Shown: piece by piece, positions 56,072 through 56,147 of the stretch
Layout of the letters: each line of letters opens with the position of its first letter
Position numbering within the stretch: the stretch's first letter is position 1
NCBI RefSeq assembly: GCF_003334785.1
Contig: NZ_QOWV01000005.1
Length of the DNA stretch: 64,000 nt
Source of the DNA: Escherichia coli
Lineage (GTDB): Bacteria; Pseudomonadota; Gammaproteobacteria; Enterobacterales; Enterobacteriaceae
Reading direction: 5' to 3' (one strand)
The notes under the pieces: model-generated
Database searches by the model: none
What the model saw: the letters and a program-made list of their open reading frames with translations, nothing else
Told to the model about the DNA's origin: nothing
Made by a program: the position numbers and the translations under genes

Positions 56072-56088
56072 TAACAATAAGTGTGCCA
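56072..56088 (-). promoter_or_regulatory. candidate sigma-54 -24/-12 element (CTGGCAC-N5-TTGT) ~80 nt upstream of ygeW
   Basis: Minus-strand reading CTGGCACACTTATTGTTA: -24 TGGCAC is perfect; -12 has GT instead of the conserved GC. Inference only. Confidence 0.3.
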
Positions 56089-56131
56089 GAATTATCCGCG
56101 CGGCTGCAAAAGACTAATTTGACGGATAATG

Positions 56132-56147
56132 TGTGGGGTTGATCACA
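56132..56147. promoter_or_regulatory. CRP-like palindrome TGTGG-ggttga-TCACA upstream of the ygeW candidate promoter
   Basis: tgtggggttgatcaca read directly; one mismatch to the TGTGA-N6-TCACA core. Confidence 0.35.

What the first reader, a model, noticed from the sequence alone, without database searches (positions are those of the whole stretch)
56072..56147. Candidate sigma-54 promoter plus upstream CRP-like palindrome in front of ygeW, next to the sigma-54 activator gene ygeV
ygeV encodes an enhancer-binding protein (GAFTGA present) and is divergent from the ygeW operon. About 80 nt upstream of ygeW the minus strand reads CTGGCACACTTATTGT (perfect -24, imperfect -12), and 45 bp further upstream lies TGTGG-N6-TCACA. 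This gives a concrete, testable regulatory architecture for an otherwise orphan activator. The palindrome could equally be a YgeV enhancer rather than a CRP site.
Basis: inference. Interest (0 to 1): 0.55.

Follow-up and report, generated by a model that had tools for sequence, protein, structure and literature searches.

The report
Known sigma-54/CRP promoter of ygeW
The two sequence elements in front of the E. coli urate-degradation gene ygeW are real and deeply conserved, but both are already published: one as a sigma-54 RNA polymerase binding site and the other as the predicted CRP (glucose-sensing regulator) site, while the binding sites of the neighbouring activator YgeV most likely lie further upstream.

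Summary
On the minus strand, CTGGCACACTTATTGTT lies at 56073-56089, and the palindrome TGTGG-N6-TCACA lies at 56132-56147, in the spacer between the divergent genes ygeV and ygeW.

Both elements are already published. The 17-mer is sigma-54 ChIP-seq site OS30 of Bonocora et al. 2015, and a sigma-54 gSELEX peak maps to the same spacer. Li et al. 2018 list the palindrome as the predicted Crp-cAMP site in a ygeW promoter fragment that bound Crp-cAMP in EMSA. ygeW and ygeV expression falls in a cyaA crp mutant, and urate degradation is repressed by glucose.

Twelve enterobacterial genera add to this. TGGCAC-NN-TTATTGTTA is invariant, including the non-consensus -12 TTGT. The palindrome core GTGA-N7-C.CA is invariant and lies 53-54 bp from the GG.

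A different palindrome, TATCA-N3-TGA(T/G)A, lies upstream of all four sigma-54 promoters of the cluster (ygeW, xdhA, ygfK, ygfT). It is conserved across genera and has the same core as the predicted operator of the Clostridial regulator DioR, which controls the same genes.

Verdict: a real promoter, correctly interpreted and already known. The full YgeV-CRP-sigma-54 layout is a modest new synthesis.

The parts
56073..56089 (-). Sigma-54 (-24/-12) promoter element of ygeW: CTGGCACACTTATTGTT. GG at 56087/56086; the -12 region reads TTGT instead of TTGC.
   Evidence: Sequence. Identical to ChIP-seq site OS30 of Bonocora 2015. RpoN gSELEX peak in the same spacer. TGGCAC-NN-TTATTGTTA is invariant in 12 genera, 14/17 columns, P about 1e-10.
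56060..56064 (-). Predicted ygeW transcription start, about 56062 (inferred, not measured). It would give a leader of about 80-83 nt.
   Evidence: Inference from standard -24/-12 numbering applied to the 17-mer. Agrees with the distance of 80 given by Bonocora 2015. I found no TSS data.
56132..56147 (.). CRP-type palindrome TGTGGGGTTGATCACA (minus strand TGTGATCAACCCCACA), centred about -77.5 relative to the predicted start and 53 bp from the GG.
   Evidence: Sequence. Published as the predicted Crp-cAMP site within an EMSA-positive ygeW fragment. Core GTGA-N7-C.CA is invariant in 12 genera, at 54 bp from the GG in 10 genera and 53 bp in 2.
56290..56302 (.). Candidate YgeV operator (UAS A): TATCAATATGAGA read in the ygeW direction. 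Centre 209.5 bp from the GG.
   Evidence: The 12-mer CTCATATTGATA is shared exactly with the xdhA and ygfT upstream regions. 8/13 columns invariant in 12 genera, P about 9e-5. Fixed distance of 209.5-212.5 bp from the GG. Same core as the Clostridial DioR UAS.
56261..56273 (.). Candidate YgeV operator (UAS B): TATCAAACTGAAG read in the ygeW direction. Centre 180.5 bp from the GG and exactly 29 bp from UAS A.
   Evidence: TTATCA-N3-TG is invariant in 12 genera, 7/13 columns, P about 9e-4. The 29-bp spacing from UAS A is the same in all 12 genera.
56388..56400 (.). Weaker third UAS-like element, TATCATCATGATC, about 60 bp upstream of the ygeV ATG. It may be an autoregulatory site or part of the ygeV promoter.
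   Evidence: One mismatch to TATCA-N3-TGATA. GATA is invariant in 12 genera, and the equivalent position reads TTTCATATTGATA in Enterobacter and TTTCAGAATGATA in Cedecea. Function not resolved.
54792..55982 (-). ygeW (knotted carbamoyltransferase), first gene of the transcription unit served by this promoter. The conserved start codon is at 55979.
   Evidence: ORF list and RefSeq annotation. Orthologs start at the second ATG.
56458..58236 (+). ygeV, a divergently transcribed sigma-54 enhancer-binding protein with PAS, AAA+ (GAFTGA at residue 347) and Fis-type HTH domains.
61994..62141 (-). Sister promoter xdhA: sigma-54 box 61994..62010, CRP-like TTTTAACGTCATCACA at 62043..62058 (43 bp from the GG), and two UAS-type sites at 62108..62120 and 62129..62141, 21 bp apart.
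   Evidence: The CRP-like element is the xdhA site listed by Li 2018.
46437..46634 (-). Sister promoter ygfK: sigma-54 box 46437..46453, CRP-like sites at 46486..46501 (43 bp from the GG) and 46516..46531 (perfect TGTGA-N6-TCACA, 73 bp from the GG), and a perfect UAS TATCATAATGATA at 46622..46634.
   Evidence: The UAS and the site at 43 bp are invariant in 10 genera.
31252..31446 (+). Sister promoter ygfT: UAS TCTCATATTGATA at 31252..31264, CRP-like TTTGAACTCAGTCGCA at 31381..31396 (44 bp from the GG position), and a weak sigma-54 box at 31430..31446.
   Evidence: No orthologous sequences were examined for this promoter.

Best explanation
This is the sigma-54-dependent promoter of the ygeW transcription unit (ygeW, ygeX/dpaL, ygeY and probably hyuA and arcC), which belongs to the anaerobic urate-degradation cluster of E. 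coli.

RNA polymerase with sigma-54 binds TGGCAC-N5-TTGT at -24/-12 as a closed complex. Occupancy is weak, and the T in place of the consensus C at -12 is consistent with that.

Open-complex formation needs the adjacent enhancer-binding protein YgeV. YgeV most likely binds not the palindrome in the finding but two TATCA-N3-TGA operators centred about 180 and 210 bp upstream of the GG, roughly -205 and -234.

The palindrome at about -77.5 is a CRP-cAMP site. It ties the promoter to carbon availability (glucose repression). Because it lies between the enhancer and the promoter at a fixed distance, it probably acts by bending the DNA so that YgeV can reach the polymerase, which is the role IHF plays at many other sigma-54 promoters.

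Status of each step:
- Shown by others: sigma-54 occupancy at this 17-mer; Crp-cAMP binding to the ygeW promoter fragment; dependence of ygeW and ygeV expression on Crp-cAMP; glucose repression of urate degradation.
- Shown here: conservation of each element and of the spacing between them; recurrence of the same layout at xdhA, ygfK and ygfT; identity of the upstream palindrome core with the Clostridial DioR operator.
- Inferred: the transcription start; YgeV binding to the TATCA sites; the bending role of CRP.
For: Sigma-54 element:
- The exact 17-mer is ChIP-seq site OS30.
- An RpoN gSELEX peak lies in the spacer.
- It is invariant in 12 genera.
- The EBP with GAFTGA is adjacent and divergent.

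CRP site:
- 9/10 match to the consensus.
- Li 2018 report EMSA-positive ygeW, xdhA and ygeV fragments and list this sequence as the predicted site. ygeW and ygeV are 'up-group 1' genes, meaning their expression is lower in a cyaA crp mutant.
- Tong 2025 describe a native Crp site in the spacer. Urate degradation is glucose-repressed in wild type but not after the site is replaced.
- The invariant columns are the GTGA and C.CA cores, at 53-54 bp from the GG in 12 genera.
- The distance from the palindrome to the ygeV ATG varies from 304.5 to 323.5 bp (derived coordinates).
- CRP-like elements lie 43, 43 and 44 bp from the GG at xdhA, ygfK and ygfT, plus one at 73 bp at ygfK. All differ from 53 by about 10, 20 or 30 bp.
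- No IHF consensus is present in the region.

YgeV operator:
- An unbiased shared k-mer search gives CTCATATTGATA in 3 of the 4 sigma-54 upstream regions and ATATTGATA in all 4.
- There are three exact 12-mers in 64 kb, and 0 of 100 shuffles reach the observed count of matches.
- TATCA-N3-TGATA with up to 1 mismatch gives 7 hits against 1.3 expected.
- The motif is conserved at the ygeW, ygfK and xdhA promoters across genera.
- Published DioR UAS sites have the same core, for example ATTTATCATAATGATAAGG.
- Firmicute loci L004 and L008 carry three perfect copies each, 100-280 bp upstream of sigma-54 boxes next to ygeW, dpaL, ygfK, ssnA and xdh homologues.
- The HTH helix GIGIATLYRK is identical in YgeV and these EBPs.
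Against: - I found no measured transcription start, no rpoN- or ygeV-dependent reporter data and no footprint for this promoter.
- Sigma-54 occupancy is weak (FAT 3), and the study's authors call such sites binding sites, not promoters.
- The Crp site was predicted in silico within an EMSA-positive fragment, not footprinted or mutated. The ygeW and ygeV fragments come from the same 475-bp spacer.
- The Crp dependence of ygeW expression could be indirect, because ygeV itself drops about 8-fold in the cyaA crp mutant.
- In most genera the right arm of the palindrome reads TCGCA rather than TCACA.
- A massively parallel reporter study found no consistent footprints at YgeV-iModulon promoters in the conditions it tested.
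- YgeV binding to the TATCA-type sites rests only on comparative evidence.
- UAS A and UAS B are 29 bp apart, which is not an integral number of helical turns.
Confidence: 0.75

Rival explanations
1. The palindrome at 56132-56147 is the YgeV enhancer, and CRP is not involved at this position.
For: Enhancer-binding proteins with Fis-type HTH domains bind inverted repeats. The element is conserved at a fixed distance from the promoter. Similar elements recur at the sister sigma-54 promoters. No footprint assigns the site to CRP.
Against: Fragments containing this element and the xdhA equivalent bound Crp-cAMP in EMSA, and the published predicted sites are these very sequences. A different palindrome, TATCA-N3-TGA(T/G)A, is the element shared exactly between promoters. 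That palindrome matches the operator predicted for the Clostridial regulator DioR, which controls the same genes. The Firmicute promoters carry the TATCA palindromes but nothing CRP-like (best match 3 or more mismatches) between the UAS and the sigma-54 box. A centre 53 bp from the GG is also closer than most predicted UAS sites in the Clostridial survey, which lie 100-250 bp from the promoter.
Confidence: 0.08
2. CRP does bind the palindrome, but its real target is the divergent sigma-70 promoter of ygeV. On this view ygeW responds to CRP only indirectly, through the amount of YgeV.
For: ygeV is expressed at much higher levels than ygeW and drops about 8-fold in the cyaA crp mutant. The 'ygeV' site predicted by Li 2018 is a poor match, so their ygeV fragment may have been shifted through this palindrome. 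A sigma-70-like -35/-10 pair (56150-56179, plus strand) starts right next to the palindrome.
Against: The palindrome keeps a distance of 53-54 bp from the ygeW GG in 12 genera, while its distance to the ygeV ATG varies by 19 bp. The sigma-70-like pair would place the site near -46.5, which from my own knowledge fits neither of the two standard spacings at CRP-activated promoters. That pair is also not conserved across genera. The xdhA, ygfK and ygfT promoters have no divergent ygeV, yet carry CRP-like elements at distances that differ by about one to three helical turns, and the xdhA fragment bound Crp-cAMP.
Confidence: 0.12
3. The sigma-54 element is a weak, non-productive binding site, and ygeW is transcribed from another promoter.
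For: The ChIP-seq FAT score is only 3, and the -12 element is non-consensus. The motif alone is no more frequent than chance in the window. ygeW expression is very low in published RNA-seq.
Against: TGGCAC-NN-TTATTGTTA is invariant in 12 genera while the flanking 42 bp have no invariant column. TTGT at -12 also occurs at the pspA and pspG promoters, which the same table marks as confirmed in EcoCyc. An adjacent EBP, upstream operators and a YgeV iModulon that includes ygeWXY all fit a working promoter. The sigma-70 scan found only a weak candidate that overlaps the start codon.
Confidence: 0.05

Closest known systems
Sigma-54 ChIP-seq site OS30 (ygeW) of Bonocora et al. 2015, and the RpoN gSELEX peak in the ygeV/ygeW spacer of Shimada et al. 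2021
   Same: It is the same object. The motif CTGGCACACTTATTGTT is identical, in the same orientation and the same position upstream of ygeW.
   Different: Those studies report binding only. They did not show transcription, activator dependence or conservation for this site. The invariance across 12 genera, including the -12 TTGT, is added here.
Predicted Crp-cAMP site of ygeW in Li et al. 2018 (Table S2), and the 'native Crp-binding site' of Tong et al. 2025
   Same: The sequence is the same: ATTTGTGATCAACCCCACACAT, printed in the paper with one C missing. It is the same promoter, and the paper's xdhA site equals the element found here 43 bp from the xdhA GG.
   Different: The published evidence is EMSA on whole fragments plus an in-silico site call. 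No footprint or mutation was done, and the papers do not connect the site to the sigma-54 promoter or to its fixed spacing.
DioR regulon of Clostridiales (Nie et al. 2019): a sigma-54 EBP controlling dpaL, ygeW-ygfK-ssnA-ygeY, yqeC-ygfJ-yqeB-xdhC and xdhABC
   Same: The target genes are the same. The EBP architecture is the same and the HTH helix is identical. The operator core TATCA-N3-TGATA is the same and occurs in several copies, mostly 100-280 bp upstream of TGGCA-type sigma-54 boxes.
   Different: YgeV is only 34-37% identical to the Firmicute EBPs. The enterobacterial promoters carry an additional CRP-type site between the UAS and the promoter that the Firmicute promoters lack. In the library searched, the DioR motif has not been applied to E. 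coli YgeV.
IHF-assisted sigma-54 promoters (for example glnHp2, Pu, nifH) and CRP-modulated sigma-54 promoters (prpBCDE, glnAp2, dctA). Recalled from my own knowledge, not checked here.
   Same: The layout is the same in three parts: a distal EBP operator, a DNA-bending protein site in between, and the -24/-12 box. CRP influencing sigma-54 promoters has precedent.
   Different: No IHF consensus is present here, and CRP occupies the intermediate position. Whether it activates by bending, by contacting the polymerase, or acts mainly on ygeV is untested.

Membership tests
Sigma-54 (-24/-12) promoter | TGGCAC with the GG dinucleotide at -24 | tested here: met
   CTGGCAC at 56089..56083. Invariant in 12 genera.
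Sigma-54 (-24/-12) promoter | TTGC(A/T) at -12, with the GC 10 bp downstream of the GG | tested here: inconclusive
   The spacing is correct, but the element reads TTGTT, with T in place of the consensus C. The same TTGT occurs at pspA and pspG, which Bonocora's Table 1 marks as confirmed in EcoCyc. The TTGT is invariant in 12 genera, so the deviation is tolerated and conserved.
Sigma-54 (-24/-12) promoter | Occupancy by sigma-54 holoenzyme | not testable with these tools
   Published: ChIP-seq FAT 3 at this motif and a gSELEX peak of 53-55% in the spacer.
Sigma-54 (-24/-12) promoter | A cognate enhancer-binding protein with the GAFTGA loop | tested here: met
   YgeV is adjacent and divergent, with GAFTGA at residue 347, and Sigma54_activat and HTH_8 domains.
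Sigma-54 (-24/-12) promoter | Transcription dependent on rpoN and the EBP, starting about 12 nt downstream of the -12 element | not testable with these tools
   I found no TSS or reporter data for ygeW. Indirect support only: ygeWXY are in the YgeV iModulon.
CRP-cAMP binding site | Match to TGTGA-N6-TCACA with the correct 6-bp spacer | tested here: met
   TGTGA-TCAACC-CCACA, 9/10.
CRP-cAMP binding site | Conservation concentrated on the half-site cores (GTGA / CACA) | tested here: met
   The invariant columns are GTGA and C.CA. The spacer and flanks vary. In 6 of 12 genera the right arm reads TCGCA.
CRP-cAMP binding site | Binding of Crp-cAMP in vitro | not testable with these tools
   Published at fragment level: the ygeW, xdhA and ygeV promoter fragments were EMSA-positive, and the site itself was called in silico. 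No footprint found.
CRP-cAMP binding site | Expression dependent on cAMP/CRP | not testable with these tools
   Published: ygeW, ygeV and xdhABC expression rises under carbon limitation and is lower in a cyaA crp mutant. Glucose represses urate degradation. The effect could be indirect, through ygeV.
YgeV/DioR-type enhancer (UAS) | Inverted repeat TATCA-N3-TGATA | tested here: not met
   This row concerns the palindrome in the finding (56132..56147). It has a different core (TGTGA-N6-CCACA) and does not match. The TATCA-type repeats are at 56261..56273 and 56290..56302 instead.
YgeV/DioR-type enhancer (UAS) | Several copies 100-250 bp upstream of every sigma-54 promoter of the regulon, conserved in orthologs | tested here: met
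   This row concerns the upstream TATCA sites. They are present at ygeW, xdhA, ygfK and ygfT in E. coli. They are conserved at ygeW (12 genera), ygfK (10) and xdhA (5). The same arrangement occurs in Firmicute loci L004 and L008. xdhA and ygeW each have two or more copies; only one was detected at ygfK and ygfT.
YgeV/DioR-type enhancer (UAS) | Bound by the EBP | not testable with these tools
   No YgeV DNA-binding data were found in the library. The DioR sites are themselves computational predictions.

The most novel reading that the evidence does not exclude
The four sigma-54 promoters of the E. coli urate-degradation cluster (ygeW, xdhA, ygfK, ygfT) share one three-part design. YgeV binds DioR-type TATCA-N3-TGA operators about 105-210 bp upstream of the GG. 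CRP-cAMP binds 43, 53 or 73 bp upstream of the GG, distances that differ by whole helical turns, and serves as the obligatory DNA-bending co-activator in place of IHF. On this reading the EBP and its operator are shared with Firmicutes, which carry the same operator core on the same genes, while the CRP sites are an enterobacterial addition that put a urate pathway of the gut under catabolite control.
Probability: 0.35. Interest if true: 0.5.

Novelty: already known. Interest (0 to 1): 0.3.

Why it matters
The ygeW cluster encodes the anaerobic urate-degradation pathway of gut bacteria, which has recently been linked to serum urate and gout and has been engineered into a probiotic by replacing exactly this spacer.

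The two elements in the finding add nothing to the published record. The comparison made here does give a concrete, base-level model of how the pathway is switched on, with YgeV operators, a CRP site at a fixed distance and a weak sigma-54 box. This matters because a large reporter study could not obtain footprints for these promoters, and because YgeV's DNA target has not been reported in the library searched.

The model says which bases to mutate to separate urate induction from glucose repression.

Tried and rejected
- The genome-collection scan with YgeV was swamped by the conserved AAA+ domain and gave only one true ortholog.
- The first protein search returned only E. coli copies. Searching again with the Enterobacter ortholog solved this.
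- I tested the ygeW leader for structure because conserved blocks showed up in the alignment. The fold is no better than shuffles (z = -0.2) and there is no Rfam match, so I dropped it.
- There is no IHF consensus between the UAS and the promoter.
- The generic sigma-70 scan gave only chance-level hits. The pair next to the palindrome is not conserved.
- The second copy of TGGCACACTTATT, at 24228, lies inside dsbC and is probably chance.
- One literature query was too loose and returned nothing relevant.
- Reitzer and Schneider 2001, which PRECISE-1K cites for the first prediction of sigma-54 promoters at xdhABC and ygeWXY, is not held, so it could not be read.
- Some of my gene coordinates transferred from L001 were offset and produced stop codons in the queries. 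The tblastn matches to L004 and L008 were still unambiguous.

Full report
**What is there.** The window carries the E. coli ygeV/ygeW region in reverse orientation. ygeW is on the minus strand (54792..55982) and ygeV on the plus strand (56458..58236), separated by a 475-bp spacer. On the minus strand the spacer reads CTGGCACACTTATTGTT at 56089..56073. It contains the palindrome TGTGGGGTTGATCACA at 56132..56147, whose centre is 53 bp from the GG. YgeV contains GAFTGA at residue 347.

On sequence alone neither motif exceeds chance. The sigma-54 pattern with one mismatch gives 8 hits against 7.6 expected. The CRP pattern gives 5 hits against 2.2 expected.

**Both elements are already published.** Table 1 of Bonocora et al. 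2015 lists the exact 17-mer as sigma-54 ChIP-seq site OS30, oriented towards ygeW, at distance 80 and with FAT 3. It has no EcoCyc entry in that table. The same table lists sigma-54 sites for xdhA, ygfK and ygfT, and I located all three in this window. Shimada et al. 2021 found an RpoN holoenzyme gSELEX peak in the ygeV/ygeW spacer. PRECISE-1K cites Reitzer and Schneider 2001 for sigma-54 promoters upstream of xdhABC and ygeWXY, and defines a YgeV iModulon of 13 genes.

For the palindrome, Li et al. 2018 classed ygeW, ygeV and xdhABC as activated by Crp-cAMP: expression rises under carbon limitation and is more than two-fold lower in a cyaA crp mutant. They reported that the promoter fragments bound Crp-cAMP in EMSA. 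Their Table S2 gives ATTTGTGATCAACC(C)CACACAT as the predicted ygeW site and TTTTTTTAACGTCATCACACTT as the xdhA site. Tong et al. 2025 replaced 'the native Crp-binding site' in this spacer. They showed that urate degradation is repressed by glucose in wild type but not in the engineered strain.

**Conservation.** I collected the ygeV-ygeW spacer from eleven other enterobacterial genera: Enterobacter, Cedecea, Pluralibacter, Serratia, Kluyvera, Intestinirhabdus, Raoultella, Trabulsiella, Atlantibacter, Citrobacter and Pseudocitrobacter. I aligned them with the E. coli spacer. Conservation falls into sharp islands:

- TGGCAC-NN-TTATTGTTA is invariant in all 12 genera, including the non-consensus TTGT at -12. 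Fourteen of 17 columns are invariant against a 13% background (P about 1e-10).
- The palindrome keeps GTGA-N7-C.CA invariant, 7 of 16 columns (P about 0.004). These are the core positions of the two half-sites.
- The palindrome centre is 54 bp from the GG in ten genera and 53 bp in E. coli and Citrobacter.
- The 42 bp between the palindrome and the promoter have no invariant column, and the 113 bp upstream of the palindrome have one. Their lengths are nevertheless preserved.
- The distance from the palindrome to the ygeV start codon varies by 19 bp (from coordinates). The element is therefore tied to the ygeW promoter rather than to ygeV.

**The YgeV enhancer is most likely elsewhere.** I ran an unbiased search for k-mers shared by the 300 bp upstream of the four sigma-54 boxes. 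It returned CTCATATTGATA in three of them and ATATTGATA in all four. The window contains three exact 12-mers, and no shuffle reached the observed count of matches.

The motif is the palindrome TATCA-N3-TGA(T/G)A. Its occurrences are:

- **ygeW:** two copies, 180.5-183.5 and 209.5-212.5 bp from the GG, exactly 29 bp apart in all 12 genera.
- **xdhA:** two copies 21 bp apart, conserved in five genera.
- **ygfK:** a perfect copy, invariant in ten genera.
- **ygfT:** one copy.

Nie et al. 2019 predicted sigma-54 regulons in Clostridiales. Their DioR group controls dpaL, ygeW-ygfK-ssnA-ygeY, yqeC-ygfJ-yqeB-xdhC and xdhABC. The listed UAS sites, for example ATTTATCATAATGATAAGG and TATTATCATTTTGATAATA, have the same core. 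The C. difficile sites read ...ATGAGAA..., like the E. coli copies.

Among the Firmicute relatives of YgeV fetched, two loci have the EBP next to urate-degradation genes. These are L004 (dpaL-ygeW-ygeY-ygfK-arcC-ssnA) and L008 (ygeW-ygfK-ssnA and xdh genes). Each carries three perfect TATCA-N3-TGATA copies 100-280 bp upstream of a TGGCA-type box. Neither has a CRP-like element in between. Their HTH helix GIGIATLYRK is identical to that of YgeV. I found no paper in the library that reports a DNA motif for YgeV itself. A massively parallel reporter study obtained no consistent footprints for YgeV-iModulon promoters.

**A common layout.** CRP-like elements with an invariant TCACA arm lie 43 bp from the GG at xdhA and ygfK and 44 bp at ygfT. 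A perfect TGTGA-N6-TCACA lies 73 bp from the GG at ygfK. Together with 53-54 bp at ygeW, these distances differ by about 10, 20 and 30 bp, which are whole helical turns. No IHF consensus is present.

This fits CRP sitting on a fixed face of the helix between the enhancer and the promoter. It may act as the bending element that IHF provides at other sigma-54 promoters. That last step is inference only.

**Caveats.**

- No transcription start, rpoN- or ygeV-dependent reporter, or footprint exists for this promoter in what I could read.
- Sigma-54 occupancy is weak.
- The Crp site was called in silico inside an EMSA-positive fragment.
- The Crp effect on ygeW may be partly or wholly indirect, because ygeV itself falls about 8-fold in the cyaA crp mutant.
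- Most genera have TCGCA rather than TCACA in the right arm of the palindrome.
- YgeV binding to the TATCA-type sites rests on comparative evidence.

**Verdict.** The alternative that the palindrome is the YgeV enhancer is unlikely. The added value of this work is the conservation evidence, the candidate YgeV operator shared with Clostridial DioR, and the shared layout at four promoters. Together these make the regulation of a medically topical pathway directly testable.

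Noticed in passing
window 24228-24242 (+), inside dsbC: TGGCACACTTATTCC shares the 13-mer TGGCACACTTATT with the ygeW sigma-54 box. It lies in the sense orientation inside the dsbC coding sequence. dsbC does not appear in the main text of the sigma-54 ChIP-seq paper (supplements not checked), so this is probably chance.
   Followed up: partly
E. coli strain EC24, NZ_CP182191.1 962985-964362 (hit H1): An IS1A element is inserted within the region matched by window 55900-56500. The 601-bp query spans 1378 bp in two pieces. The insertion would separate or disrupt the regulatory elements in that strain.
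   Followed up: no
window 54446-54458, inside ygeX/dpaL; also L089 8001: A perfect TATCAAGATGATA palindrome lies inside the coding sequence and is also present in Citrobacter. It could be an internal YgeV site, or it could be conserved only because it is coding.
   Followed up: no
L084 11813, L085 11794, L086 11837: TATCACTCTGAGA lies just after the ygeV stop codon and about 200 bp before a 549-aa MFS transporter gene in Kluyvera, Intestinirhabdus and Raoultella. These genera have that gene where E. coli has xdhCBA. It may be an extra regulon member.
   Followed up: no
window 56310-56400: Further columns are invariant in 12 genera with no assigned function: ATCACA 8 bp from UAS A (about 56309-56314), AAnTATG (about 56323-56329), TTGATA (about 56360-56366) and GATA (about 56388-56391). 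They may be ygeV's own sigma-70 promoter and an autoregulatory site.
   Followed up: partly
window 46617-46637 (-): The E. coli ygfK operator shares the exact 17-mer TTATCATAATGATAAGG with the C. botulinum DioR site listed for ygeW-ygfK-ssnA-ygeY. This is striking identity for organisms in different phyla.
   Followed up: partly
window 55979-55982: The longest ORF starts ygeW at the ATG at 55982. RefSeq and all eleven orthologs support the next ATG, at 55979 (ATGAAAAC).
   Followed up: yes
window 56458-58236 (ygeV): The precomputed Pfam domains are PAS_8, Sigma54_activat, AAA_lid_14 and HTH_8, with no receiver domain. The label 'orphan response regulator' used in the IsrR paper therefore does not fit the domain content.
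   Followed up: partly
window 47187-47957 (yqeC): Bonocora et al. constructed a promoter mutant within yqeC, in a strain carrying FLAG-tagged YqeB. This suggests a fifth, intragenic sigma-54 site in this window. I did not locate or analyse it.
   Followed up: no
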